Source: Spironucleus salmonicida (taxonomy: Eukaryota). From it: DNA of 64,000 bases. Positions 3,551-61,838 of this stretch are shown here, piece after piece. The notes under the pieces are model-generated. The model made no database searches, was not told the DNA's origin, and saw nothing but the letters and a program-made list of their open reading frames with translations. A program made the translations under genes and the position numbers. The stretch lies in the NCBI RefSeq assembly GCF_000497125.1, contig NC_090603.1, forward strand, positions 310,001 through 374,000. Direction: 5' to 3'. Within the stretch, counting starts at the first letter, position 1. The number at the start of each line of letters is the position of its first letter.

Positions 3551-6500
3551 ATGAAGCCCATAGACACCACGTTTGCAAGGTATCACAATGGCAACAAGTT
3601 TGTGCGCGTGGGAATGGACTATATTTTTGACAAATCCAGCGTCACATAGTTCATCATCTAGCTCACGAGTCTAAGGGACCTGCGGTTATTTCACGAATTC
3701 GTTCTTGAGCTGAAGCAGCTCCGGCACGTGCAGCACAGATTCATCGTCCTACAACGTTTCAGTTTCAATTCAAAGTGCGTTTCCGAGCTATGGGATAACT
3801 AGGGCATTCTGCTTGCCAACCTCGGATTTGGTGTTATCAGTAAGCTGTTCGCCACGTATGCGGAGGACCTGAAACACGAGGTTCAGACTACCACCCAATT
3901 TTGCTATTACTCTTGCTTTCCTGCTCACGACTACGCTGCGAGAGATAGCCAGCTCACGCTGCACGAAATTTCTCCTTTGACCACTACTGTCAGCCTTACG
4001 CAGTACGCGCTAGGTTGTACAGATGTGTTAACACACTTTCTGCCACTGTCGCTCGCGTTGAGCGCCTGTGCGCTCTTCGCTCCATTTTTAATTGCTTTAC
4101 AGTGGCACAACAGTCGGAATACGTTGGATAAATTGCGTGATTTGGATGATTAGAATAATCTGAATACTTCTGATAGTTAAAACAATGCCCAAACTATACA
4201 AAACTTGCGAAATGCACAAAACATCCAAAAGCTCCACGATATACTACTACACTCATCTAGGCTTTACAATGAGCCTAACTACCACTCCTACAGCCAGTTC
4301 ACCCTATACTGTCTGGAAAATGCTCTCCACATTCCGCTCCATTTTTTCGACCATCTTGGTCCAATTGACGCTGGCGAACATTTTTCCTAGCCTTCCAATT
4401 CGACCTCCGATCCAGCACCTCCCCTCCCGCCTCTCCTACGCAAGCGCCTCTTCGCGCTATCATTCCTATTTAAAGCTGAGCATTTCGCGATATCCGCAGC
4501 GCTCCAGGACACCCAAAACGGCGTTTTGGCCGCACCCTCCAAATCAGGCAAAAGCACAGCGCTGCTTACGACATACTACTTCCTGAAGCTTAGTGGCATC
4601 GCGGTGCCGCTCTACATCAACGGCGATCCCCGGCGTGAAATTTCGAGCATTTCCGCGAATATCTGCCTGTTCCCGCTAAAGAAGTCCATGGACGTGCGGA
4701 ACTGCAGGGAGAACATTTAGCACTTTATGCGCGAAACGAAGAGCTATTATATCACTTTGAAAAATTGCAAAGCACAGATTCGTGCCGCGATGCGCTAAAA
4801 CAGCGCGAATCCGGTCACCGGCCACGAGATATTTTTTCTGCCATTCGCGAATAAGCATATTGTGAATGTGCAGGTTATATTTTAAAGTCTGCTGCGATAA
4901 TGTGGGGTGCAGGAGGGTGGGAATGGTGGGAATAACGATAATAATGATAATAATGATAATAAATCAAAGACCCCGGAAATCGCATTTTAGTGTCTTCTAA
5001 ACGACGATTTTGATCAATTTTAAGCCCTAGAAAACGTCACAATCGACGATTTCCGATCGCATCCTCCCAATAACTGCAATCCTCAAGATTTATGCTCCCC
5101 GCACGGCAGAAATTGCCAAAAATCGCTCTCCGAACAAGCACGGATCTGGCAAGGCTCTAAAACGTCCAAATCGGCAGCTTGCGTCCTATTATCCGACGAG
5201 GCGCTGCGCAGCGCCAAGCGCGATTTCCGGGAAACGGTGCATTTCGTCCACGGGCTAGTTGAGCAGTATTACACGCTCCTGGCGGCCTCCAAACAGAGCT
5301 TACTGTAATTTTCATCCGCACCGTGGCCTGGGCTGCTCGATTTGATCGTTTACCAGAGCCCGGCGATGGCGAATATTCGACGCCGGACGAGCGTTCAGGA
5401 GGCGTTCAGGAGGGCGTGCGGGCCGTTTCTGGACTCCAATGACGAAAAAACCGTCAAATCGTGCCTGTTCGGGTTCGTGCTCGCGCTGTTCAATCCGCGG
5501 AGCATCGAGTGCATTTTCTGGCGGAATCTGTCGTTGTCTGGTTTCGGATTTCTCGAGTTTTAGGGCGAAAGTTACATTTAGAGGATATATGGTGAGTATT
5601 TTGAGGGATAAAATGGACAATTTGGAGAGTTTTCAGGCGAAATGATTGAACAATTTCAGGTTAAGAGCATCTTCGCGGGCACGGATATGGTGATGTACGA
5701 TTTTATTGCCGAAAATGAGTATACGAGGGGAATTCTGTTTTCTGAGATTTTTGAGCAATATACGCACGCAACACTATGTGGGTTGCCTTAGCTGCATCCG
5801 TCATTGGTCAAAAATCAGTATCTGGCGAATTCGTTATTGTCCTAGTCCGTTTCAGCTGGTAAGATATTGCTAAATTCTTAATTAAAGAAGTAAATTATGG
5901 ATAGTTTGCTGCATTTTGATTTGTATGTTTTGTACATTTCTGTTCTGCCAGAGTATATTAAAAATAGTTAATTTTACTGTCCGCTAATATCTCCATAACT
6001 GTATATTTTGGACACCCGTGCTTCAGCGTAGTAGTTAAATTTTGAGAAGATTAAGTATTCATATAATTTAGTGAAATCTTACCAGGTGGAGAATAAAATG
6101 ATATAATTTCAAAAATATGATAATTATTTTTAGAATTAGTTTAAAATAGTTGTGACTGAAGTATCAGACAATTAGGCTTGCAGTACAAAAAGAAATTATT
6201 ATTTAGGCAATACTGAAATTATAAATCTAAAGATAATTTCGAGCTCATCTTCTGTTGTAAATATGCATGCTGTATTTTATTACAACTATTAAATTGTATA
6301 AAAATTTCTGACTTAGTTAGAATAGATATCATCAAATAGTTGCTTATAATAATAGCAGTATTAATTGCTTTATTATTATTTTAAAGAGTAAGAGATCTAA
6401 GAGATTAATTACTTGATATATTTTATACTATCAATAACTTCAAATATATAAACAAAAATTTTTGAATCATTATTTAAATTCTTTAAAGTTAGCCAATTAA

Positions 6501-8509
6501 AACTCTGCTATGCAACAACTGTTATATAGAATGTTAATATATAGCTATCTAATGATGAATTTTCGTTATTATTACATGGTGAAAAAGAATTGAGAGATGT
6601 TTAATTTCTGTTCTTATAGTAACCATTCGATGAGATTATATGTGATAAGTAATATGCTACAAATGCAATTATTTTATAATAGGCTATAAATACTTCTAAG
6701 CAAGCTTACGAGTTTTTTAAATTGTATATGAGTAATTATAAACTTAAACTCATTATAATTATAGTTACTGATATTGAGTAGCTCAATAATTTAGTACAGT
6801 TGAAAGAAAAACGATCAGATTTTATTATCACATTTCATGGTATTTAGTTTGAGTACATAAATAAGTATATTAATACGTATGATGACGTTAAATACTTATA
6901 TTATGAATCTGGATCACATGACCATGTAGAACTTCTATAAAAATCATAAAACAAAACTATTGTACAAGTAGGTTAAAAGATCGGCACTGTTATTTATACT
7001 AACTTGCAGAAAACTGTTTAAATTAAATCATATTAGGAAATTAATTTAACATTTTTATTTTATATTAACTCTTACTTATAATTTAATTTGGCTAATATTT
7101 CAGATAAAAATAGCGAATTTATTACACCAATAGTTAGTTCTTAGTAACTGTAAATAACGGAGTAAGGAAAACTTTAGTCAAATTAAAAATATATTAATTT
7201 TTAGTTTAAGAACATAAATTATAATTTATACTTTGATTTAGCAATATATTAAAAATAGGTCTACTTAGATGTAAAATCGTAATATTTATTTTTCAAAGCT
7301 AACGACAATGAAAATATTGATAAGTATTTAACCACATTATTTGATTATTCTTTTGTGAAAAAACCTAACTATTATAATCTTAAACTGAAATAACAACTGG
7401 AAAATAAATTAATAAAAATATTTGATACTAATGTAAAGTTAATATAAACAAAAGAAAATCTAGCGACTATAGATTTCAGTTATTTTTTGTCTTCTATATT
7501 TAGGGTATTCGATCATCACTGTTTATACATTGAATGTGCTACTATTATCGATGTTAAATATTTTCAGCTTTTTTGTTCTAAGTTTGATTATCAAATTTAG
7601 ATAGCACAAGATATATATATTAAAATTACTAACTATAGTGTAACAATAATTGAAAAATTTATTGATTTTGGTATAATTTTAATGAATTTTTAAGATCACA
7701 GCAATAATCAATTTAAGTGTATTTCAAAAGATAACTACTTTATAACTTTTCCATTCTATTTCTAAAATATGTAATAGCTATTATGTTTGAATCATTTTGA
7801 AATTACTATCTCTGAATCATGTTATGAAGACTATAGCTTTACACTTCTGAATTAAAATAAAACTAGTTCAGCTTCATGGTAGAAATTTGAATTTCATTGT
7901 TATTTTTATACTTTACAGGCAAGTTTATTATAATTGCACAAAGATAATAAATTAAAATATATTTACTAACATTAAAACTCACCACTTAAAATATGTTTAG
8001 ACGATCTATTAGAGGAAATTTTTACTTGCAATAGTATAGTATATAAAATTTAAGATGATGTTATTTAGTTAGTTAATCTTAATCCGTAAATTGGTAAACT
8101 TATAAACATTAATTCCAATATTATTCATTCGTTTTCTAAAAGCGAAAAAATATATTTAAATTTACTGAAAAATTCTAAATTCAACAGTTTACCTCAAAAA
8201 GACGTATAATTTTTATTATTTTTATCTATTAGAGAATAGTTTATAGAAATTAAGAAACTTTTATTAAAAACACCAAATTTTTTAAACAAATCAAAGTTTA
8301 CATATCGCTTTTACTATACTGGCACATTTTAAAACATTGACCAATAAGTATATTTTGGACTAAACGAGCAATTTATAATTTCTTACGATATAAGTAGCGC
8401 TAATCTATTAACATTGTTTAGTACCTTGAAAGCAGTTGCTCTTACTATTGAATGTTATGTGGATAGAAAAATAACTGTAGAATTTGTGAAAATGTGTTTT
8501 TTCAAGTGA
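3551..8509 (+). CDS. Large hypothetical protein (~1652 aa) with a Walker-A-like motif
   Basis: Frame open in code 6 in all stretches I translated, from ATG 3551 to AAG-TGA 8509. Contains VLAAPSKSGKST at ~4523-4558. The 5' part is GC-rich and the 3' part very AT-rich. Confidence 0.7.
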
Positions 8510-25646: not shown

Positions 25647-25748
25647 TGAGAATTGAGAAATGAGAAATGAGAATTGAGAATTGAGAATTGAGAATTAAGT
25701 GTAAGAGTAAGTGTAAAAGTAAGAGTAAGAGTAAGTGTAAGTGTAAGA
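25647..25748 (+). repeat. Short GAGAA(T/A)T and GTAAG(A/T) tandem repeats
   Basis: Visible 7-mer and 6-mer tandem units directly upstream of the GATATT array. Confidence 0.85.
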
Positions 25749-25750
25749 TT

Positions 25751-26098
25751 GATATTGATATTGATATTGATATTGATATTGATATTGATATTGATATTGA
25801 TATTGATATTGATATTGATATTGATATTGATATTGATATTGATATTGATATTGATATTGATATTGATATTGATATTGATATTGATATTGATATTGATATT
25901 GATATTGATATTGATATTGATATTGATATTGATATTGATATTGATATTGATATTGATATTGATATTGATATTGATATTGATATTGATATTGATATTGATA
26001 TTGATATTGATATTGATATTGATATTGATATTGATATTGATATTGATATTGATATTGATATTGATATTGATATTGATATTGATATTGATATTGATATT
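25751..26098 (+). repeat. Perfect (GATATT)n hexamer microsatellite, ~58 copies
   Basis: Directly visible, followed by degenerate GATATA/GATTAT units to ~26172. Confidence 0.98.
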
Positions 26099-26691
26099 GA
26101 GATATGAGATTGAGATAGATATAGATATAGATATTGATATTGATATTATGATTGAGATTATGATTATGATTATTGGGGGAGGTGGAAATAAGAGTTTTAG
26201 CGTTTTTGAAGAAGGAGTGAAAAGTCGAATTGTAATCTGAATTATGGTATTTAGTGCTAAATTCGCATTATCGTGTTAGTTTTGGGTGTGGTTAGAAAAT
26301 TGGGGGTTCCGCGGGAGTAGTGGATCCAATACTGGGCCAGTGTAATTTTCAAGTATGCGGGAGCTGGTTTTGTATCTGGAGCTGCCAAACGGGGAATAAA
26401 TTGCCCTATATGATATAAGAAAGTTGTACGTAGTAAAGTAATAATAATGATAGGATAGCCGCTTATTGATTAATACGTTTCATATGGAGTTTTACGCGAT
26501 GACCTTCGGTAAAATATTGAAAATTATATGTTTTGTAGTATCTAATTTGATATTTTCACTATACCAGCTTCCCAAACAATATAATACTGCGCGAAACATA
26601 TTCCTTTAGTTAAATTTATAATATTAAATTTTTCCATTACATATATTATTATATACTATATAAATATATTACTACATTCTTTCCTTTTTTA

Positions 26692-31095: not shown

Positions 31096-33129
31096 ATGAC
31101 ATTCATGGCAGAGCGTATCGCTTACTTTGAAGAATTGAAAGCACTTTATCCCAAGCCATAGGCAGATGAATCAATTAAAATTACTGTCACGTTAAATGGA
31201 GAGAAGATTGAAGCTTCTAAATTTACTTGTGTTTTCTAGTTACTCCCTAAAAAGCATTCATTTATTGCATGCATTATTAACGATGTGGTTTCAGATTTAT
31301 CTACCCCACTTTCTGACGCATGTAATGTTGCAACTCTCACTTTTGAAGATCCCCGTGGTAAGGAAGTTTTCTGGCACTCAGCTGCGCATGTCCTTGGTTA
31401 CGCTTTAGAAACTCTATATGAAGCAAAGTTAGGACATGGACCAGCTTTGGAAAATAATTTCTTTTACGATGCTGAAATTAGTAATCATATTGATTTAGAA
31501 ACCCTACCAAAAATCGAGGCACATATTGCTTCTTTGGTTAAAACTGCACAAAAAGAGAGAAAATCTCGTTTTGAAAGACTTGAGATCTCTAAGGTAGAAG
31601 CTTTGAAGATGTTCGCTCACAATAAGTTCAAAGTTGAACTTATCACTGAGCTTGTAAAAGATGGAGAGACTTGCACAATTTATAAGTGCGCTGATTTTGT
31701 AGATTTCTGCAGAGGCCCTCACGTGCCAGATCTTTCACTTATTCAAGCCGTTAAGCTTTTGAATTGCTCTGCAGCATATTTCAAAGGCGATTAAGCCAGA
31801 GAATCTATGCAGCGTGTATACGGTGTCGCTTTCCCCTCTAAGAAAGAGCTAGAAGTTTACTTAGATAATATAGAGGAAGCCAAGAAACGTGATCACCGTA
31901 ACATTGGCAAAGAAATGGACCTTTTCATGATGCACAAGTTCGCCCCAGGCATGCCAATGCTCTATAACAATGGAACCAAGATTTATCGCCGTTTAGAAGA
32001 TTTCATCCGCACCCTTCTCCACAAATATCACTATTTGGAGGTCTTGACCCCCAATTTCTTGAACACGGAAATGTGGAAAATCTCAGGCCACTTAGAGCAC
32101 TACCAGCAGAACATGTTCCTGTTACAGCAGAACTCGCCATCTGACCCCCTTTTCGGCCTCAAGCCGATGAACTGCCCAGGCCATTGCCTCATGTTTGCCT
32201 CTCAGCACCACGCTAAAACAGAGCTCCCAATCCGCATGTCGGAATTCGGCGTAGTGCACAGGAAGGAGGCCTCCGGCGCCCTGGGCGGCCTCACGCGCGT
32301 CCAGCGCTTCGAGCAGGACGACGCGCACGTCTTCTGCGCCCCGGATCAGATCCAGGCGGAGATTCAGCAGATAATGAACTTCCTGGTCGAGGCCTACGCG
32401 CCTTTCGAGCTGGAATTCAAGTTCGGCCTCAGCCTGCGCCCCCAGGACCGCATTGGCGAGGATTCGCTCTGGGACCAGGCTGAAAACGCTCTCAGGACCG
32501 TTCTGCAGAATTCTGCGTACGAATTCGAGGAGTTTCCGGGCGAGGGCGCCTTCTACGGCCCGAAAATCGACGTGCACCTCAAGGACGCTCTGAACCGCTT
32601 CCACCAGTGCGGAACCGTCCAATTGGACTTCAATCTGCCCCAGCGCTTCAATTTGGAGTTCGCAGAGACCGTGGACGGCAAGCAGCAGTACTCGCACCCG
32701 GTAATGATCCACAGGGCGATTCTGGGCTCAATCGAGCGCTTCATGGCCATCCTGATCGAGCACACGGCTGGGAAGTTCCCGTTCTGGGTGAGCCCGAGGC
32801 AGATTCTGATCGTTCCCGTGAACCAGGAGTTCGACGCGCACTGCAGGGCCGTTTGCGAGCGGATTTACCAGGCCGGTTTCGACGCGAAATGCGACTGTTC
32901 GGACGAGAAAATGAACAAGAAAATCGCGCGCGGATTCGGCGAAAAATGGAACTTCGTGTGCGTCGTCGGCGCGAAAGACATCGAAGGAAATGGCGTGACC
33001 GTGCAGGGGAGGAGCCTGGGCAAAATTCAGGGTGTAGAGGGCAAAGGCGATAAGCTGAGCAAGTTTTACACGGTTGAGGACTTTATAGCGCTCTGCGGGG
33101 GCTTGGCGGGCAGGAGAGACAATGTGTGA
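31096..33129 (+). CDS. TARS: Threonyl-tRNA synthetase, 677 aa
   Basis: FWHSAAHVLG, DFCRGPH, RDHRNIG, KPMNCPGHC, GLTRVQRFEQDDAH, GAFYGPKID and HRAILGSIERF. Confidence 0.97.
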
Positions 33130-41517: not shown

Positions 41518-42603
41518 ATGGGTTGCGCATCACCTGAGACAGTTATGAATATAGTAGACAAGTAAGCACTAGCATATTCATGTTCTGACAAAGATAAATA
41601 TTATCTAGTTGGAGAAATAGAAGGAGCAAAGATCAGATTAGCATTTGTGAAAAACTAAAACATTATGGCTAAAGGAAGATATTTAATTGACGAACATCCT
41701 ACAATTGTTACAGCACTTTTAAAATTTATGAAAAAATACGATATTAATAAAGTTAATTATTGTTGCTTGGCTCTAGCTGGATTAGTTGAAGATGGTACAT
41801 GCGAGATGACCAACGAGCATACGAATTATGTATATGACTGTTAAGATTTCTCAGTCGAACTTAACTGTCCAGTCAGTTTCATAAACGACTTCGCGGCCAT
41901 CGGTTGCGGGATTCAGTCCCACTTCTGGGACCAGATTCAGAAGGAGCAGTTCTCGAGGTCCGCAGCGGCCTCGGACACCGCGGTCTATCTGGGGGCTGGC
42001 TCCGGGCTCGGGTTGGGGTTCATCGTGAACGGGATGGTCTACCCCACCGAGGGCGGCCATATGCGGTACTCGGCGGCGTCGGAGGTGGAGTTCGCGCTGG
42101 TCGCCTACCTGTGCCATGACCTCGGCACCAAGCACGTCTCCTTCGAGCGGTTGCTGTCTGGGGCCGGGATCGGTGCGCTGTACGACTTCTTTTCAGGCCG
42201 GCCGATCTCTGCGCTCGCGGCGTTCTGTGGGGTGGAATCCACCGACGCGCGGGAGGTGCGGGAGGTCCTGAAGGCGGACATGCGGCACAACCTGAAGGCC
42301 CGGTACATCTCGGAGCAGTCCCACTCGTGCGAGGTGGCCGCGCTCGTGATGCGCGCCTTCCTGACGGTGCTGGCCCGCTTCATCGCGGAGGTGGTGGCGC
42401 TGTTCGACCCCGCGCGCGTGATCATCTGCGGGGGCATCGTGGCGAAGAACACGCACCTGCTGGACGCGGCCATGGTGGGTGTGCTGACGGGGGCCTGCGC
42501 CGGCCGCGAGCTGACCCTGGTGAAGGACGAGGAGGTGAGCCTCTTCGGCTGCTTCGCGCACATCCAGCGGCTGGATGCGGGGGTTACGAAGGCTCCCCAA
42601 TGA
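41518..42603 (+). CDS. glk: Glucokinase-family protein, copy 1 (degenerate phosphate-1 motif), 361 aa
   Basis: ALAG, MTN, INDFAA, GAGSGLG, PTEGGH, SFERLLSGAG and GGI motifs are present. The N-terminal motif reads VGEIEGAKIRL. Starts MGC. Confidence 0.9.
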
Positions 42604-44009
42604 GCATCCCCGACTTCCTGCTGGCCTGCGGCGACAACGACGTGTGCGGCGTGCAGCGGCTCTGGCGCCTCCGCAAGACCCACGACGGCCGCTTTTCCGA
42701 CGGCGCGCGCGTCTTCGAGGGCTTCTTCGGCATCCACTACGCCTGCGCTGGGAGCGCCCTGGGCACGCTCGCCGTGCTGCTAGCCAAGTGCTGCGGGCAG
42801 CTGGTGCAGCGGCCCTTCTTCTCGGCCCGCGTGACGCTGCGTGGGCGGCCCGTGCCGGAGGGGGCCGACTGCCTGGCGGTGAGCGTGTACGCGGACTTCC
42901 TCGACGGCGCGCGCTGCATCATGCGCTTCTACGACGCGGGCGGGATGCGCTACCCCTTCGGACGGCAGCTGGGCGCGGTGTGCGGGGCGGTAGCCAATCA
43001 GACCAGCGCGGCCGTGCTGAGGTGGGCAGACGGCGAGCGCGAGGGGAGCCTGCTGGAGTGATTCGACTTGCGGACCAATCTGCGCTCCAGGGGCGCACTC
43101 ACATATCCTCTCCCCGCGCCGGTCCCAAATAGTATACCCAGCGGAAGGCACTGCTCGGGCCGGAACCACCTCCTAGACATCTGCAGCATGATCAGCTTCA
43201 TCCACCCAGTTCCCGTAAATCCTCCCGCCCGCGAAAGCAGGCATTGCCAGATGACGTTCCCTGGCACATGCCCGCAAAAGTAGAAATCTGGGCTGGTAGA
43301 AGACCTCTCGCAGATGCAAGGATGCTGAAATCGCACAGGACAGACCCCGCCATGCAGATCTTCAGCACATGTAAAACATAAGCACGCATCCGGCTGGTAC
43401 CATATAGCCAAAAGTACAATCTGGCCAATTTAGAACTTTTCTCCATCCAAGCGCAGCGCATTTCCTCCCACCATACAAATTTATATAGAAAAAATAATGT
43501 TCAGTCCAAGGCCAAACTACCAGCTCTGGTGCTGGCATTGTTGATGGCTGCAGTTCTGTTCTTCCTCAACTCCCTCCAGGCGAGGACGCATATGGCGCCG
43601 AGGGCAACCACGGTGGCGATGGCGACACCGGCGATCACACCGCCGCTAACGGACGCCTGGAGGCAGACGTCATCGGAGGCGTAAAAGTCCAGCACGCATA
43701 ACGAGCACTTCGTAGCAGACGTGCACTGCGTGCAGTTCTCCTTGCAGGGCACGCAGAACTTGCCAGACTTGAAGAACGCGACGTTGCAGACGTCGCACTA
43801 TCCCTTGGCGCTGTCGTAGCTGGTGCAGTTCTCGCTCAGCTTCGTGCAGAAGTTCTCCGCGAGCTCGTAGCCGCCTTTGCAGGCTGCGCATTTGGAGCTG
43901 TCCGTGGCATCGCAAGTTTAGCAGTTCACGTTGTTCTTCTGGCAGGAGGCGTCGGACCCAGCGGCCACGCAGGCGCCACTATTGAGGTTGAAATTATCGT
44001 TGCAGGTTT
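41860..44009 (+). repeat. Left arm of ~2.15-kb inverted duplication
   Basis: Reverse complement of 59359-61510 (paired coordinates sum to 103368), with only scattered substitutions. Confidence 0.97.
42600..43061 (+). CDS. Ankyrin-repeat-like protein, copy 1, 153 aa; ATG overlaps glucokinase TGA
   Basis: MSIPDFLLACGDNDV...GFFGIHYACAGSALGTLAVLL. The five differences I found versus copy 2 are all synonymous. A homolog lies at 57105. Confidence 0.8.
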   Translation: MSIPDFLLACGDNDVCGVQRLWRLRKTHDGRFSDGARVFEGFFGIHYACAGSALGTLAVLLAKCCGQLVQRPFFSARVTLRGRPVPEGADCLAVSVYADFLDGARCIMRFYDAGGMRYPFGRQLGAVCGAVANQTSAAVLRWADGEREGSLLE

Positions 44010-44073
44010 TGCAATTTTCGACCTTGCACTCAGCGGGTACCAGACCGGGCAGCTTGGCGTTGGACTGAACATG
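43501..44073 (-). pseudogene. 5'-truncated, frameshifted CRMP copy
   Basis: 3' part nearly identical to 58788-59867. It has a 30-nt deletion between TGCAAAACC/TGCGAAACC microhomologies, and the nearby ATGs (44072, 44084) are out of frame. Confidence 0.7.
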
Positions 44074-45002
44074 ATTTTTATCATATTATTATTTAGTTAT
44101 TTATCATTAGTAATATAATTATTATTACTAAAATAAAAGTTTGTATAGATATTTTATATTAAAAATTATTAATAACAATAAATAATATTAAAGATGGAAA
44201 TCCTAAAATTAAAACTGAATATTAAGGTAAAATTGAAAATTACTTATACATATGTATATTTTCTGTATAGTAAATAATCTTATGAATTTACCCTAATTAT
44301 ATTACTTGTTTTATCAGATTTATGTTAAAAAATAAAATATCATTCTCTTATTTAATTATATAAATACTTAAAATTTTAGATATCTTCCTATTGCTATTGA
44401 GTAAAATACATTAACTAAATTTTCATTGTTAGAAAATAACTAATAAGAAAACTAATCACAAAAATATTTACGAAAAGTAGATACATTTTCAACCAAGGTA
44501 TATTTATGTTACTAAATTTTCTATCTAAACTATATCACCAATAATGTATAATTATATAATATACAGATGAATTAGCTATTAAATATATCTCTAATATTCA
44601 TAATTGCCTGATAAAATTCGTTACGTAATAAATTTTTATTTTTAATGCTAATAATATATAGTTTCTATATTAAATTTATATTAAATAGTTTAATAAGAAA
44701 TCTAATTAGTTAACAGAATCCTGCTAGTCTCATTTATTAAATTTTTGAAAGAATTACCGAGCACTGGTTGTATTATCAATCTTTAATAAATTCAACTTAT
44801 ATTTTTATAATATAAAAATTAAATCTTCATTATTTTTTATAATCCAACCATAGCTTGAAAGAATAGAACAAATTACAGTTTGATCAATTTATACAAAATT
44901 ATTAACTAATTTTTATATGAATCTTAACATTATTACACTAACTCAGATAAATTCGAATATAGAAAAAAATTATATAGTTAATTCGCTATTTTAAATAAAA
45001 GA

Positions 45003-57104: not shown

Positions 57105-57617
57105 ATGAACTAAAAATAAAAAATATCTCTAATAAATTCAATTAAGTAAAATGATTATTTTCAACTATAGAAAATGACAACAATATAACTAAAATTCTAT
57201 GAGAAGCGTAAATTTTCATAAGCATGTATTTATCCTGGTTTCTTACCTATACATTATGCTTGCGCCTTCAAATCTATATAAATTTTAGAATTACTTTTAA
57301 ACACTTAAGTAAATTAACTTTCAAAATTTAATTTTTTTAGTTCTAAATATCAACTTTTTGGTTACCAAGTAAAGTCTAAATTGGATGCATTATAAATATG
57401 TGTTTTTGGTGATTTTTAAGAAGGAGCGGAGTTAATAATTTCGTATATTGTTGAACATAAGATGATTTATAAAAATGGAAAAGGACTTGTAGACTGCTGC
57501 CTGTATGCAAATAATTTTGTTGGAAATTGGATGCTAGATAGTGGATTTGCATGCTAATTTATGTCAAGTTCAGTTCGTGATGATTACAAGGAGGTCGGAA
57601 GGTTTTTAGGTAGCTGA
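57105..57617 (+). CDS. Ankyrin-repeat-like protein, AT-rich stand-alone paralog, 170 aa
   Basis: YPGFLPIHYACA..ILELLL..FFSSK...LDALQICVFGDFQEGA aligns with FEGFFGIHYACA..TLAVLL..FFSAR...ADCLAVSVYADFLDGA. Confidence 0.8.
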
Positions 57618-58787: not shown

Positions 58788-59867
58788 ATGTCCTGCCATA
58801 CCGATAAAACAAATTGCTTACTCTGCTCAGATGATACCCAATCTGGAACTTGTTCGTCCTGCAACCCAGGTTATACCCTCGCTACAGACGCCTGCGCAGA
58901 CTCCTGCGCCCTTATAATTCTCGTAGACGGATCCTGCAACGCTAATTCTGACTGCACCGACACCAAAAACTGCGAAGACTGCTTCGGTACTGCTGGAGAA
59001 TGCAGAAAGTGCAAAGCACCGTCTACGCTCGAAAATAACGTATGCGCCCCAGCAGTCGAAGACTGCAAGACAGGGTCTACTCTGATTGAAAATTGCAAAA
59101 CATGCGACTCCTCAACCCCAACTACCTGTGCAACCTGCGAGGCCGCATTCACACTCTACTAATAAGTTTGTATCGCAAATGAAGCCTGCAAAACTGATAC
59201 TAACTGCAAAACCTGCGACACTACCGACCCGAAAATCTGCAAAACCTGCAACGATGACTCCGTGCCAGAGTCTGGTGTCTCCTGCCCAGTGCCCGTCCCA
59301 GCTGAGTGCAAGGTCTAAAACTGCAAAACCTGCACCGCTGGAGACCCAAATACCTGCGAAACCTGCAACGATAATTTCAACCTCAATAGTGGCTCCTGCG
59401 TGGCCGCTGGGTCCGACGCCTCCTGCTAGAAGAACAACGTGAACTGCTAAACTTGCGATGCCACGGACAGCTCCAAATGCAAAACCTGCAAAGGCGGCTA
59501 CGAGCTCGCGGAGAACTTCTGCACGAAGCTGAGCGAGAACTGCACCAGCTACGACAGCGCCAAGGGATAGTGCGACGTCTGCAACGTCGCGTTCTTCAAG
59601 TCTGGCAAGTTCTGCGTGCCCTGCAAGGAGAACTGCACGCAGTGCACGTCTGCTACGAAGTGCTCGTTATGCGTGCTGGACTTTTACGCCTCCGATGACG
59701 TCTGCCTCCAGGCGTCCGTTAGCGGCGGTGTGATCGCCGGTGTCGCCATCGCCACCGTGGTTGCCCTCGGCGCCATATGCGTCCTCGCCTGGAGGGAGTT
59801 GAGGAAGAACAGAACTGCAGCCATCAACAATGCCAGCACCAGAGCTGGTAGTTTGGCCTTGGACTGA
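58788..59867 (+). CDS. Cysteine-rich membrane protein, 359 aa
   Basis: Many NCKTC/CxxC repeats, VSGGVIAGVAIATVVALGAICVLAW transmembrane segment and a cytoplasmic tail. Confidence 0.92.
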
Positions 59868-61510
59868 ACATTATTTTTTCTATATAAATTTGTATGGTGG
59901 GAGGAAATGCGCTGCGCTTGGATGGAGAAAAGTTCTAAATTGGCCAGATTGTACTTTTGGCTATATGGTACCAGCCGGATGCGTGCTTATGTTTTACATG
60001 TGCTGAAGATCTGCATGGCGGGGTCTGTCCTGTGCGATTTCAGCATCCTTGCATCTGCGAGAGGTCTTCTACCAGCCCAGATTTCTACTTTTGCGGGCAT
60101 GTGCCAGGGAACGTCATCTGGCAATGCCTGCTTTCGCGGGCGGGAGGATTTACGGGAACTGGGTGGATGAAGCTGATCATGCTGCAGATGTCTAGGAGGT
60201 GGTTCCGGCCCGAGCAGTGCCTTCCGCTGGGTATACTATTTGGGACCGGCGCGGGGAGAGGATATGTGAGTGCGCCCCTGGAGCGCAGATTGGTCCGCAA
60301 GTCGAATCACTCCAGCAGGCTCCCCTCGCGCTCGCCGTCTGCCCACCTCAGCACGGCCGCGCTGGTCTGATTGGCCACCGCCCCGCACACCGCGCCCAGC
60401 TGCCGCCCGAACGGGTAGCGCATCCCGCCCGCGTCGTAGAAGCGCATGATGCAGCGCGCGCCGTCGAGGAAGTCCGCGTACACGCTCACCGCCAGGCAGT
60501 CGGCCCCTTCCGGCACGGGCCGCCCACGCAGCGTCACGCGGGCCGAGAAGAAGGGCCGCTGCACCAGCTGCCCGCAGCACTTGGCTAGCAGCACGGCGAG
60601 CGTGCCCAGGGCGCTCCCAGCGCAGGCGTAGTGGATGCCGAAGAAGCCCTCGAAGACGCGCGCGCCGTCGGAAAAGCGGCCGTCGTGGGTCTTGCGCAGG
60701 CGCCAGAGCCGCTGCACGCCGCACACGTCGTTGTCGCCGCAGGCCAGCAGGAAGTCGGGGATGCTCATTGGGGAGCCTTCGTAACCCCCGCATCCAGCCG
60801 CTGGATGTGCGCGAAGCAGCCGAAGAGGCTCACCTCCTCGTCCTTCACCAGGGTCAGCTCGCGGCCGGCGCAGGCCCCCGTCAGCACACCCACCATGGCC
60901 GCGTCCAGCAGGTGCGTGTTCTTCGCCACGATGCCCCCGCAGATGATCACGCGCGCGGGGTCGAACAGCGCCACCACCTCCGCGATGAAGCGGGCCAGCA
61001 CCGTCAGGAAGGCGCGCATCACGAGCGCGGCCACCTCGCACTAGTGGGACTGCTCCGAGATGTACCGGGCCTTCAGGTTGTGCCGCATGTCCGCCTTCAG
61101 GACCTCCCGCACCTCCCGCGCGTCGGTGGATGCCACCCCACAGAACGCCGCGAGCGCAGAGATCGGCCGGCCTGAAAAGAAGTCGTACAGCGCACCGATC
61201 CCGGCCCCAGACAGCAACCGCTCGAAGGAGACGTGCTTGGTGCCGAGGTCATGGCACAGGTAGGCGACCAGCGCGAACTCCACCTCCGACGCCGCCGAGT
61301 ACCGCATATGGCCGCCCTCGGTGGGGTAGACCATCCCGTTCACGATGAACCCTAACCCGAGCCCGGAGCCAGCCCCCAGATAGACCGCGGTGTCCGAGGC
61401 CGCTGCGGACCTCGAGAACTGCTCCTTCTGAATCTGGTCCCAGAAGTGGGACTGAATCCCGCAACCGATGGCCGCGAAGTCGTTTATGAAACTGACTGGA
61501 CAGTTGAGTT
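59359..61510 (-). repeat. Right arm of ~2.15-kb inverted duplication
   Basis: Reverse complement of 41860-44009. Confidence 0.97.
60307..60768 (-). CDS. Ankyrin-repeat-like protein, copy 2, 153 aa; ATGA overlap with glucokinase
   Basis: Protein identical to 42600-43061. Confidence 0.8.
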   Translation of the reverse strand: MSIPDFLLACGDNDVCGVQRLWRLRKTHDGRFSDGARVFEGFFGIHYACAGSALGTLAVLLAKCCGQLVQRPFFSARVTLRGRPVPEGADCLAVSVYADFLDGARCIMRFYDAGGMRYPFGRQLGAVCGAVANQTSAAVLRWADGEREGSLLE

Positions 61511-61838
61511 ATTTTGAAAATTATTGGCTGTCGTATATATAATTGGTATTTTCATTCGTCATTTCGCATTTATTAGCCTCAATAGGTCCAGCTAATGCCA
61601 GGCAGCAACAAGTGAGATGCTTGATACCATACTATTTTAAAAACGAAATTATGGCTGAAACTAGTGTGGGGTGATCTTCTGTAAGATAGTTAGCCCTAAA
61701 TATGATGCTACCATCTTTCATTAATGCTAATCTGAGATTTGTTCCGCCTATATCGCCAACAATACAAATGTGCGAATTCAAGCCCTTTTGCGATTGCGGA
61801 TGAGCGATAATAATCTACGATTAGTTCACACAGCCCAT
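60765..61838 (-). CDS. glk: Glucokinase, copy 2 (intact motif), 357 aa
   Basis: MGCVNQ...IVGDIGGTNLRLAL...ALAGPI...MTN...INDFAA...GAGSGLG...PTEGGH. Confidence 0.93.

What the first reader, a model, noticed from the sequence alone, without database searches (positions are those of the whole stretch)
42598..43061. Operon-like ATGA stop-start coupling of glucokinase to an ankyrin-like ORF in a eukaryote
Seen: glucokinase ends CAA-TGA (42601-42603) and the next ORF's ATG (42600-42602) overlaps it, identically in copy 2 (60765-60768). The downstream ORF looks real. All five differences I found between the copies (CTC/CTG, GAG/GAA, CCC/CCG, GGA/GGG, GTA/GTG) are synonymous, and a free-standing homolog exists at 57105. 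Unlike nearly every other gene here, it has no AT-rich promoter tract upstream, only GC-rich coding DNA. Glucokinase lacks the AG-TGA end seen on about half the genes, while the ankyrin ORF has it (GAG-TGA). Known: AUGA overlaps drive translational coupling in bacteria and termination-reinitiation in caliciviruses. Inference: a dicistronic mRNA translated by reinitiation or a -1 frameshift fusion, giving a kinase plus adaptor module.
Basis: partly seen in the sequence, partly recalled or inferred. Interest (0 to 1): 0.8.

Follow-up and report, generated by a model that had tools for sequence, protein, structure and literature searches.

The report
Glucokinase and ankyrin gene overlap (ATGA)
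In a diplomonad protist, a real small ankyrin-repeat gene starts on the stop codon of a glucokinase gene and has no promoter-like DNA of its own, so it may be read from the same messenger RNA, though only RNA data can show that.

Summary
Glucokinase (41518-42603) ends caA-TGA, and a 153-codon ORF (42600-43061) starts on that A. An inverted copy at 60307-61838 has the same junction. The ORF is a real gene. Its GC3 is 0.94 against GC2 0.52. It is 31% identical (E 2e-19) to the free-standing paralog at 57105. It is related to named Hexamita and Trepomonas ankyrin proteins. All 5 of 5 differences between the copies fall on third codon positions.

Two corrections weaken the case. The two copies are one recently homogenised 2.25-kb GC-rich inverted repeat, so copy 2 is not independent evidence. 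ATGA junctions between long ORFs are also common by chance when TGA is the only stop (8 among 193 ORFs).

Context favours co-transcription. The ORF lacks the AT-rich tract found upstream of all 24 other genes I accepted, and the CATT[TC]C motif found upstream of 15 of them. Glucokinase lacks the AG-TGA end that 13 of 24 genes have, and the only AGTGA downstream is the ORF's own stop.

No RNA or protein data exist, so dicistronic reinitiation stays unproven (about 0.4). A frameshift fusion and a bacterial-operon relic are disfavoured. Overlapping genes are already documented in diplomonads.

The parts
41518..42603 (+). Glucokinase copy 1 (361 aa under code 6). The 5' third is AT-rich and the 3' two-thirds are GC-rich.
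   Evidence: Pfam PF02685, E 1.7e-37. The C-terminus is complete against 14 relatives. GC3 is 0.24 before 41863 and 0.90 after it. The ATP motif reads GEIEGA where relatives have GDIGGT.
42600..42603 (+). ATGA junction. ATG of the ORF overlaps TGA of glucokinase by 4 nt.
   Evidence: Read directly.
42600..43061 (+). ORF153 copy 1, a small divergent ankyrin-repeat protein (153 aa).
   Evidence: GC1/2/3 are 0.69/0.52/0.94. E 2e-19 to the paralog at 57105. E 7e-09 and 2e-05 to named Hexamita and Trepomonas ankyrin proteins. The family profile hits solved ankyrin structures, best E 4e-26. The model has pLDDT 73.6 and four helix pairs, and the listed top fold hits are ankyrin-repeat domains or proteins, though weak, E 5e-3 or worse.
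43057..43061 (+). AGTGA at the ORF153 stop. It is the only AGTGA on the + strand between 41500 and 43600.
   Evidence: AGTGA is the proposed poly(A) signal overlapping the stop codon in Spironucleus (PMC3916229, passage read).
43062..43500 (.). 439-bp spacer between the convergent stops of ORF153 and the cysteine-rich gene. G+C is about 37-59%.
   Evidence: There are no differences between the copies here. No homology to longer ankyrin relatives. No Rfam match.
43501..44103 (-). 5'-truncated fragment of a cysteine-rich membrane protein gene. It has no Met anywhere in the frame.
   Evidence: Stop-to-stop frame of 200 aa. It matches the C-terminal part of the full-length copy at 58788-59867.
41760..44013 (+). 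Arm 1 of the inverted repeat. The near-identical GC-rich core is 41863-43883.
   Evidence: BLASTN gives 98.0% over 2255 nt. The core has 8 mismatches: 3 in glucokinase, 5 in ORF153 and 0 in 43062-43883. It is the only repeat in the window.
59355..61608 (-). Arm 2 of the inverted repeat.
60765..61838 (-). Glucokinase copy 2 (357 aa from the Met at 61838). It keeps the GDIGGT motif.
   Evidence: Pfam PF02685, E 1.7e-43. The identical 357-aa protein is in the public protein set (P0063). Its 5' third is an old paralog of copy 1: pS 0.70 and pN 0.32 over 108 codons.
60307..60768 (-). ORF153 copy 2, with the same ATGA junction at 60765-60768.
   Evidence: The translation is identical to copy 1.
58788..59867 (+). 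Full-length cysteine-rich membrane protein, convergent with ORF153 copy 2.
   Evidence: One search shows CXXC-rich repeats, a hydrophobic C-terminal stretch that I read as a transmembrane segment, and a short tail. The start at 58788 was chosen from upstream context.
57105..57617 (+). Free-standing AT-rich paralog ORF170. The public protein set holds the form starting at the second Met, 57174.
   Evidence: P0007 (147 aa) equals residues 24-170. It has 12 in-frame TAA/TAG codons read as Gln and 88% A+T upstream.

Best explanation
Two real genes of a Hexamita/Trepomonas-like diplomonad abut with a 4-nt ATGA overlap. One is a bacterial-type glucokinase and the other a 153-aa divergent ankyrin-repeat protein. 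They sit inside a GC-rich 2.25-kb tract that has recently been copied or gene-converted between two old glucokinase paralogs lying in inverted orientation 17 kb apart.

The ankyrin gene has no upstream region of its own, and glucokinase lacks the usual AG-TGA end. I therefore think the most likely expression route is a single transcript that starts at the glucokinase promoter and ends after the AGTGA at the ankyrin gene's stop. On that transcript, ribosomes finishing glucokinase at UGA would restart at the overlapping AUG (termination-reinitiation).

Shown: the overlap, the reality and constraint of both genes, the missing promoter-like features, and the stop contexts. Inferred: co-transcription. 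Inferred further, with less support: reinitiation.
For: Reality of the ORF:
- GC3 is 0.94 against GC2 0.52.
- Homology to the paralog at 57105 and to named ankyrin proteins.
- Its Met1 aligns with the relatives' N-termini.
- 5 of 5 inter-copy differences are at position 3. P is 0.004 if sites are uniform, or 0.016 if weighted by G/C sites.

No promoter-like features of its own:
- 33% A+T in the 60 nt upstream, against 57-92% at 24 of 24 other starts.
- The maximum A+T in any 20-nt window over the 400 nt upstream is 0.45, against at least 0.80 for 24 of 24 others.
- 0 hits to a CATT[TC]C-type motif that 15 of 24 other genes carry at -7 to -31. I defined that motif by eye, after seeing the sequences.
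- The bases before the ATG are cccca, where many genes have aaa.

Spacing: ten other same-strand neighbour pairs are 150-1170 bp apart (my subtraction from the coordinates). This pair is at -4.

3' ends:
- AG precedes TGA in 13 of 24 genes, against 9.8% of internal codons ending in AG.
- Glucokinase has caaTGAg and the ORF has gagTGAt.
- The next AGTGA after the glucokinase stop is the ORF's own stop.
- AGTGA is the proposed poly(A) signal in Spironucleus (PMC3916229, passage).
Against: - There are no transcript or protein data.
- In eukaryotes studied so far, restart after a long ORF is inefficient without a special upstream element (recalled, not from a call). The 161 nt around the junction fold no better than shuffles, z -0.16.
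- AGTGA is not depleted inside coding sequences: 17 seen against 19.8 expected from codon shuffles. The pentamer alone therefore may not set 3' ends.
- 6 of 24 genes lack G before TGA, so glucokinase is not unique in that.
- In S. salmonicida ESTs, poly(A) tails sit about 13 nt after the TGA with only weak context (PMC1805757, passage). Glucokinase mRNA might therefore be cut inside the ORF's first codons.
- A+T richness upstream of other genes may simply be intergenic background.
- The papers I read report overlapping diplomonad genes as a feature of compact genomes and do not describe dicistronic mRNAs.
- The synonymous-only differences could have been imported by conversion from another family member.
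Confidence: 0.4

Rival explanations
1. These are ordinary overlapping neighbours. ORF153 has its own monocistronic mRNA, started from a cryptic promoter inside the glucokinase coding region that is not AT-rich. The ATGA is simply the first TGA that the glucokinase frame meets.
For: - Short overlaps between neighbouring genes are documented in diplomonads. There are 47 cases averaging 38 bp in S. salmonicida (PMC3916229). Six ORF pairs overlap by 1-101 bp, four of them co-directional (PMC1805757). In G. muris 441 genes (9.5%) overlap by a mean of 21 bp (PMC7641422).
- Under a TGA-only code, ATGA junctions arise easily: 8 among 193 ORFs.
- 9 of 24 other genes also lack the CATT[TC]C motif.
Against: Nothing resembling the upstream context of the other 24 genes exists within 400 nt. 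The window is not compact, since other same-strand gaps are 150-1170 bp, so packing pressure does not explain a zero spacer.
Confidence: 0.3
2. ORF153 is a passenger. It is transcribed as part of the glucokinase 3' region but is not translated, or no longer translated. It is kept intact for now by recent copying.
For: - It has no promoter-like features.
- It is absent from the public protein sets searched.
- Arm 1 shows decay around it: the cysteine-rich gene is truncated and the ATP motif in glucokinase copy 1 is degenerate.
- The two copies are too similar for much decay to show yet.
Against: - GC2 stayed at 0.52 while GC3 rose to 0.94. Protein-level constraint therefore lasted through the compositional shift.
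- 5 of 5 recent differences are synonymous.
- The frame is intact in both arms.
- The C-terminus still aligns with the paralog's.
Confidence: 0.17
3. A -1 ribosomal frameshift or a sequence error makes a single glucokinase-ankyrin fusion protein.
For: The ORF153 frame is open upstream to at least 42327, so a shift anywhere in the last 270 nt of glucokinase would give a fusion.
Against: - I see no X XXY YYZ heptamer before the stop (read).
- There is no exceptional structure at the junction.
- The ORF starts with a Met that aligns with its relatives' N-termini.
- Glucokinase ends where its relatives end.
- 0 of 16 glucokinase relatives of 198-632 aa carry an ankyrin domain.
- An identical 357-aa glucokinase ending ...KAPQ is in the public protein set.
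Confidence: 0.04
4. The ATGA pair is a relic of a bacterial operon acquired together with the bacterial-type glucokinase.
For: Glucokinase is of the bacterial type. The nearest non-self relatives are bacterial, mostly cyanobacterial, at 27-39% identity. ATGA overlaps are typical of prokaryotic operons (PMC6728339; only the start of the abstract was seen, in the listing).
Against: - 0 of 80 bacterial glucokinase loci (up to 3 kb either side) encode a relative of the ankyrin family, by tblastn at E 0.01 or by an HMM of alignment A2.
- The ORF's relatives are diplomonad proteins.
- Its paralog uses TAA/TAG as Gln 12 times.
Confidence: 0.02
5. The arrangement is an assembly chimera of AT-rich protist DNA and GC-rich foreign DNA.
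For: There is an abrupt switch from about 30% to about 68% G+C inside glucokinase at about 41863.
Against: - The reading frame and the homology to glucokinases run straight through the switch.
- The same mosaic occurs in both arms, with 8 differences between them.
- Inside the GC-rich repeat there are in-frame TAG/TAA codons read as Gln: 3 in the cysteine-rich gene (4 in its whole GC-rich half) and 1 in glucokinase copy 2.
- Other genes in the window show similar within-gene G+C shifts.
Confidence: 0.02

Closest known systems
[quoted passage not shown]
   Same: Same lineage. Co-directional ORFs overlap by a few bases, and the stop codon doubles as part of the 3'-end signal (PMC7641422, PMC3916229 and PMC1805757; passages read).
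   Different: Those cases are reported as a feature of very compact genomes. Here the neighbouring gaps are 150-1170 bp, and the upstream coding DNA is 67% G+C with no promoter-like tract. How the reported cases are expressed was not described in the passages I read.
Prokaryotic ATGA / TGATG translational coupling by termination-reinitiation
   Same: The same 4-nt stop-start overlap of co-directional cistrons (PMC6728339; only the start of the abstract seen, in the listing).
   Different: This is a nuclear eukaryotic gene pair. There is no Shine-Dalgarno system, and a shared mRNA has not been shown. The bacterial-relic origin was tested and not supported (0 of 80 loci).
Viral termination-reinitiation (calicivirus VP2, influenza B M1/BM2)
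   Same: A stop-start overlap after a long first ORF in a eukaryotic translation system (PMC3035654; only the start of the abstract seen).
   Different: Those systems need an upstream RNA element that holds the ribosome (recalled). No exceptional structure is seen here (z -0.16). Complementarity to 18S rRNA could not be tested because the window holds no rRNA.
Conserved bicistronic nuclear loci of green algae
   Same: Two proteins from one nuclear mRNA in a eukaryote (PMC11892635; only the start of the abstract seen).
   Different: Those use leaky scanning past the first AUG. That cannot work after a 361-codon first ORF.
Multi-gene transcripts in compacted eukaryotic genomes (microsporidia, nucleomorphs). 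Recalled, not from any call.
   Same: Transcripts run through neighbouring genes when the signals lie inside adjacent genes.
   Different: There, downstream ORFs are thought to be translated from other, shorter transcripts. The genome here is not compact.

Membership tests
Bacterial-type glucokinase (Pfam PF02685) | Profile match above the curated cut-off | tested here: met
   129.6 and 149.3 bits against a cut-off of 22.1.
Bacterial-type glucokinase (Pfam PF02685) | N-terminal D-x-G-G-T phosphate-binding motif | tested here: inconclusive
   Copy 2 has GDIGGT. Copy 1 has GEIEGA where 13 of the 14 other aligned sequences have D/G/G/T-type residues. Copy 1 may be inactive.
Bacterial-type glucokinase (Pfam PF02685) | Complete C-terminal conserved block, neither truncated nor extended into the next gene | tested here: met
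   The last conserved block aligns, and only 9 residues follow it, against 0 to about 8 in relatives.
Ankyrin-repeat proteins | The protein itself passes a Pfam ankyrin model | tested here: not met
   ORF153 matches 0 families at E up to 1. The paralog ORF170 reaches only E 0.012, 16.5 bits, below the cut-off.
Ankyrin-repeat proteins | Significant homology to proteins that do pass ankyrin models | tested here: met
   E 7e-09 to P0035 and 2e-05 to P0059. Both pass Ank_2 (39.5 and 36.0 bits against a cut-off of 27.3) and are named ankyrin proteins of Hexamita inflata and Trepomonas sp. PC1. A profile of the five aligned relatives hits ankyrins and DARPins in the PDB, best E 4e-26.
Ankyrin-repeat proteins | Stacked helix-turn-helix repeat fold | tested here: inconclusive
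   The model has pLDDT 73.6 and four helix pairs plus a hairpin. The listed top Foldseek PDB hits are ankyrin-repeat domains or proteins, but E is 5e-3 or worse and TM is at most 0.48. ORF153 alone against PDB sequences gives nothing relevant.
Translationally coupled ATGA cistron pair (termination-reinitiation) | 4-nt stop-start overlap between two real co-directional coding sequences | tested here: met
Translationally coupled ATGA cistron pair (termination-reinitiation) | Both cistrons on one mature mRNA | not testable with these tools
   Only indirect context is available.
Translationally coupled ATGA cistron pair (termination-reinitiation) | Downstream translation depends on upstream termination | not testable with these tools
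   This needs reporters or ribosome profiling.
Viral TURBS-type reinitiation | Upstream structured element complementary to 18S rRNA | tested here: inconclusive
   The fold of 42500-42660 has z -0.16. There is no rRNA in the window to test complementarity against.
-1 programmed frameshift fusion | Slippery heptamer X XXY YYZ before the stop, plus a downstream stimulator | tested here: not met
   I see no such heptamer in the last 60 nt of glucokinase (read). The fold is unexceptional.
Diplomonad overlapping gene pairs | Neighbouring annotated or real genes sharing 1 to a few hundred bases in a diplomonad genome | tested here: met
   A 4-nt overlap. Diplomonad identity is inferred from code 6 usage, an Fe-hydrogenase, VSP-like cysteine-rich proteins, and nearest named relatives in Hexamita and Trepomonas.

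The most novel reading that the evidence does not exclude
A nuclear gene pair of a free-living diplomonad is expressed as a true dicistronic mRNA. The second cistron is translated by AUGA termination-reinitiation after a 361-codon first ORF. Relatives of this organism normally initiate translation next to the cap on almost leaderless mRNAs (recalled). Such pairs could be more frequent but hidden, because gene-calling pipelines discard ORFs that overlap another call. ORF153 itself is absent from the public protein sets I searched.
Probability: 0.3. Interest if true: 0.75.

Novelty: new member of a known kind. Interest (0 to 1): 0.4.

Why it matters
If one mRNA really yields both proteins, this would be a cellular, non-viral case of stop-start reinitiation in a deep-branching eukaryote with a pared-down translation apparatus. 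It would be a handle on how such ribosomes recycle and restart. It would also argue for re-annotating diplomonad genomes with overlaps allowed.

If instead the ankyrin gene has its own transcript, the pair is one more overlapping-gene case. The lesson is then about promoters that are not AT-rich.

Either way, the locus adds an apparently unannotated gene. It also shows a clear mosaic of ancient paralogs and a recently homogenised GC-rich tract, which is useful for studying gene conversion and G+C heterogeneity in this expanded genome.

Tried and rejected
- Binding test of glucokinase with ORF153 (complex prediction). The 'kinase plus adaptor' idea therefore stays unchecked.
- The listing of cluster members. 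The database was switched off. Whether ORF153 exists verbatim in public sets rests only on the negative searches.
- First structure model from a 2-sequence alignment. pLDDT was 43.3, so it was unusable and was replaced by the model.
- The protein-atlas search. The best score was 0.88 with low recognition. It gave only weak ankyrin leads and was not used as evidence.
- The idea that the 439-bp spacer is the decayed C-terminal half of a longer ankyrin gene. tblastn with five relatives found nothing beyond 43061 better than E 0.09. ORF153's C-terminus aligns with the paralog's. I rejected the idea, although 43062-43200 keeps a weak G+C periodicity in the ORF's phase (0.49/0.54/0.76).
- Rfam and tRNA scans of the whole window gave 0 hits.
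- Depletion of AGTGA inside coding sequences, as a test of whether it acts as a signal. None was found: 17 seen against 19.8 +/- 4.3 expected.
- Bacterial-operon origin. 0 of 80 loci.
- Intron joining the two ORFs. I see no GTATG-type donor or CTAAC-type branch motif near the junction (read). The motif forms are recalled.
- Literature searches for dicistronic or polycistronic mRNAs in diplomonads. Among the listed titles and abstract starts, none reports them. I did not open the unlisted papers.
- Collections of eukaryotic, metagenomic or viral contigs were not available. Synteny of this pair in other diplomonads is therefore unchecked.
Full report
**What the window is**

Under code 6 (TAA/TAG read as Gln) the window carries intronless genes. 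These include an [Fe]-hydrogenase, class II aminoacyl-tRNA synthetases, MORN and CBS proteins, and VSP-like cysteine-rich membrane proteins. The nearest named relatives of the ORF under study come from Hexamita inflata and Trepomonas sp. PC1. I therefore treat the window as nuclear DNA of a Hexamita/Trepomonas-like diplomonad. This is an inference about the organism group only.

**The observation**

- Glucokinase copy 1 (41518-42603, Pfam PF02685, E 1.7e-37) ends CAA-TGA. The A of CAA begins an ATG that opens a 153-codon frame ending GAG-TGA at 43061.
- The inverted copy has the same junction at 60765-60768 and encodes the identical 153-aa protein.
- The two ORF copies differ at five sites.

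**Is the downstream ORF a gene?**

Yes.

- G+C by codon position is 0.69/0.52/0.94. The protein was therefore under constraint while silent sites drifted to extreme G+C.
- It matches the AT-rich free-standing ORF at 57105-57617 at 31% identity, E 2e-19. That paralog has 12 in-frame TAA/TAG codons.
- A profile of the two proteins, searched against 1.84 billion representatives, found the paralog's public form (P0007) and otherwise ankyrin-repeat proteins.
- Two of the hits align over the whole N-terminal 120 residues and pass Pfam Ank_2. They are named 'Ankyrin_repeat protein 1 [Hexamita inflata]' and a Trepomonas ankyrin protein.
- A five-sequence profile hits solved ankyrins and DARPins, best E 4e-26.
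- An AlphaFold model built with that alignment has pLDDT 73.6 and four helix pairs. Its best fold matches are ankyrin-repeat domains or proteins, though weak.
- ORF153 itself passes no Pfam model. It is a divergent member of the family.
- Its Met1 aligns with the relatives' N-terminal Met, and its C-terminus aligns with the paralog's. It is therefore a complete cistron.
- It was not found in either public protein search. The exact look-up could not be made.
- Passages I read on the annotation pipeline of the published H. inflata genome say that extra Prodigal calls were added only if they overlapped no GlimmerHMM call (PMC11787283). A pipeline of that kind would drop such an ORF.

**Is the ATGA more than chance?**

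By itself, no.

- With TGA as the only stop, 8 ATGA junctions occur among the 193 ORFs of at least 100 aa.
- Six of these are not the glucokinase pair. Three lie antisense to supported genes. Two have an AT-rich upstream partner in what I take to be intergenic DNA. One lies in unsupported AT-rich DNA. This is my judgement from position and composition, and I did not run Pfam on them.
- The chance that 153 codons stay open in this tract is 0.22 from the TGA rate (40 in 4038 codons) and 0.32 from 5000 shuffles.
- What is not chance is that both partners are real genes.

**The two copies are not independent**

- The only repeat in the window is an inverted pair, 41760-44013 against 61608-59355, at 98.0%.
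- Its core, 41863-43883, has 8 differences: 3 in glucokinase (1 synonymous, 2 not), 5 in ORF153, and 0 in the last 822 bp.
- Upstream of the core the two glucokinases are old paralogs, with pS 0.70 and pN 0.32 over 108 codons.
- The left edge of the core coincides with an abrupt switch from about 30% to about 68% G+C inside the gene.
- On the right, arm 1 ends inside a cysteine-rich membrane protein gene. That gene is full length only in arm 2, at 58788-59867.
- So a 2.25-kb tract was recently copied or converted between two ancient glucokinase loci. Agreement of the junction in copy 2 adds little.
- The five synonymous differences are still informative (P 0.004 to 0.016). They could, however, have been imported from another family member.

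**Context that bears on expression**

I fixed the probable starts of 24 other genes from Pfam alignments and upstream composition. These starts are my choices and are not validated.

- All 24 have 57-92% A+T in the 60 nt upstream, and a 20-nt window of at least 80% A+T within 100 nt. ORF153 has 33% and 40%.
- No window exceeds 45% A+T for 400 nt upstream of ORF153.
- Fifteen of the 24 carry a CATT[TC]C-like motif at -7 to -31, and many have AAA before the ATG. ORF153 has neither. I defined the motif by eye, so the count is descriptive.
- The arrangement resembles the TATA-like tract, C-rich motif and A-rich initiator described for S. salmonicida (PMC3916229, section 10 read whole).
- Ten other co-directional neighbour pairs are 150-1170 bp apart. 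This is my subtraction from the coordinates, and unrecognised genes may lie in the larger gaps.
- At the 3' end, AG precedes TGA in 13 of 24 genes and G does in 18 of 24. The corresponding shares of internal codons are 9.8% and 24.6%.
- Two of the six genes without that G have an AGTGA within 12 nt downstream.
- Glucokinase has caaTGAg. The next AGTGA on its strand is the stop of ORF153, followed by T.
- AGTGA overlapping the stop is the proposed poly(A) signal of Spironucleus, with tails about 13-14 nt downstream (PMC3916229 and PMC1805757, passages).

Evidence against reading too much into this:

- AGTGA is not depleted inside coding sequences (17 against 19.8 +/- 4.3).
- Glucokinase is not the only gene lacking the G.
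- The EST study found only weak context beyond TGA.
- A+T richness upstream may be mere intergenic background.

**Mechanism**

I rank four routes.

1. One transcript runs from the glucokinase promoter to just past 43061, and ORF153 is translated by restart at the overlapping AUG (0.4).
2. A separate mRNA starts from an unconventional site inside glucokinase (0.3).
3. ORF153 is an untranslated passenger (0.17).
4. A frameshift makes a fusion protein (0.04).

For the fusion, I see no slippery heptamer (read) and the junction fold is unexceptional (z -0.16). Glucokinase is complete, and none of its 16 relatives of 198-632 aa carries an ankyrin domain.

I tested a bacterial-operon relic directly. 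The closest bacterial glucokinases are mostly cyanobacterial. None of 80 loci has a relative of the ankyrin family within 3 kb.

An assembly chimera is unlikely. Frame and homology run through the G+C switch, both arms share it, and TAA/TAG Gln codons occur inside the GC-rich tract.

**Comparison with what is known**

- Short overlaps between neighbouring genes are on record for diplomonads. S. salmonicida has 47 cases with a mean of 38 bp. An earlier survey found six pairs of 1-101 bp, four of them co-directional. G. muris has 441 genes (9.5%) overlapping by a mean of 21 bp (passages).
- In four literature searches I saw no listed title or abstract reporting dicistronic mRNAs in diplomonads. 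The long-read Giardia study uses 'polycistronic' only for kinetoplastids in its text, plus twice in titles in its reference list.
- The locus is therefore a new member of a known kind, overlapping diplomonad genes.
- It has an unusual feature. The downstream gene lacks any recognisable upstream signal, in a region that is not gene-dense.
- The bolder reading, cellular AUGA reinitiation, is open and testable.

**What stayed unchecked**

- Any RNA or protein evidence.
- Synteny in other diplomonads, since no eukaryotic contig collection was available.
- Exact-sequence look-up in public clusters.
- Supplementary tables of the genome papers, which I did not open. They may list overlapping pairs.

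Noticed in passing
41863 (copy 1) and about 61505 (copy 2); also 3551-8509 and 31096-33129: G+C content switches sharply inside genes. Glucokinase GC3 goes from 0.24 to 0.90 at the repeat boundary. The 1652-codon ORF at 3551-8509 is about 41-47% G+C up to 6000 and 21-27% after that. The threonyl-tRNA synthetase rises from 37% to 57%. GC-rich islands do not follow gene borders. The cause could be GC-biased conversion among paralogs or import from GC3-rich donors, and this is unresolved. One literature search found nothing on this in diplomonads.
   Followed up: partly
41518-41640 (glucokinase copy 1, N-terminus): Copy 1 has GEIEGA where copy 2 and the bacterial relatives have the ATP-binding GDIGGT motif. 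Copy 1 may be a catalytically dead paralog, although its 5' part shows pN well below pS against copy 2.
   Followed up: partly
43501-44103 (-): This is a fragment of a cysteine-rich membrane protein gene with no Met in its 200-aa frame. It is cut off near the repeat boundary. The full gene is at 58788-59867. This suggests that arm 1 is the derived, partly decaying copy.
   Followed up: partly
-7 to -31 upstream of 15 of 24 gene starts, e.g. 856, 11000, 22695, 45960(-), 63252: A CATT[TC]C / TTTCC motif is followed by an A-rich stretch before the ATG. It resembles the C-rich promoter motif described for Spironucleus salmonicida. I defined it by eye and did not test it statistically.
   Followed up: partly
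Stop codons of 24 genes across the window: AG precedes the TGA stop in 13 of 24 genes and G does in 18 of 24. Two genes without it have AGTGA within 12 nt downstream. Yet AGTGA is not avoided inside coding sequences.
   Followed up: yes
42600-43061 and 60307-60768: ORF153 was not found in the two public protein searches, whereas the neighbouring glucokinase and the paralog ORF170 were found. It looks like an unannotated gene.
   Followed up: partly
41518-42327: The public set holds a 270-aa form identical to the first 270 residues of glucokinase copy 1 (P0064, 2 member sequences). It ends at a point where the window has no stop codon. The reason is unknown and could be a partial model, a contig end or a variant allele.
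   Followed up: no
43062-43200: The 139 nt after the ORF153 stop keep a G+C periodicity in the ORF's phase (0.49/0.54/0.76). The frame stays open for 88 more codons. No homology to longer ankyrin relatives was found.
   Followed up: partly
25647-26159: A long microsatellite, (ATTGAT) x 68.5 at 97% match, is preceded by two shorter arrays of 7-nt and 12-nt units. It lies between two genes.
   Followed up: no
41937-43244 (-) and 60124-61431 (+): A 435-codon open frame lies antisense to glucokinase and ORF153. It has no Pfam match, and its composition is that expected opposite a GC3-rich gene. I take it as spurious.
   Followed up: partly
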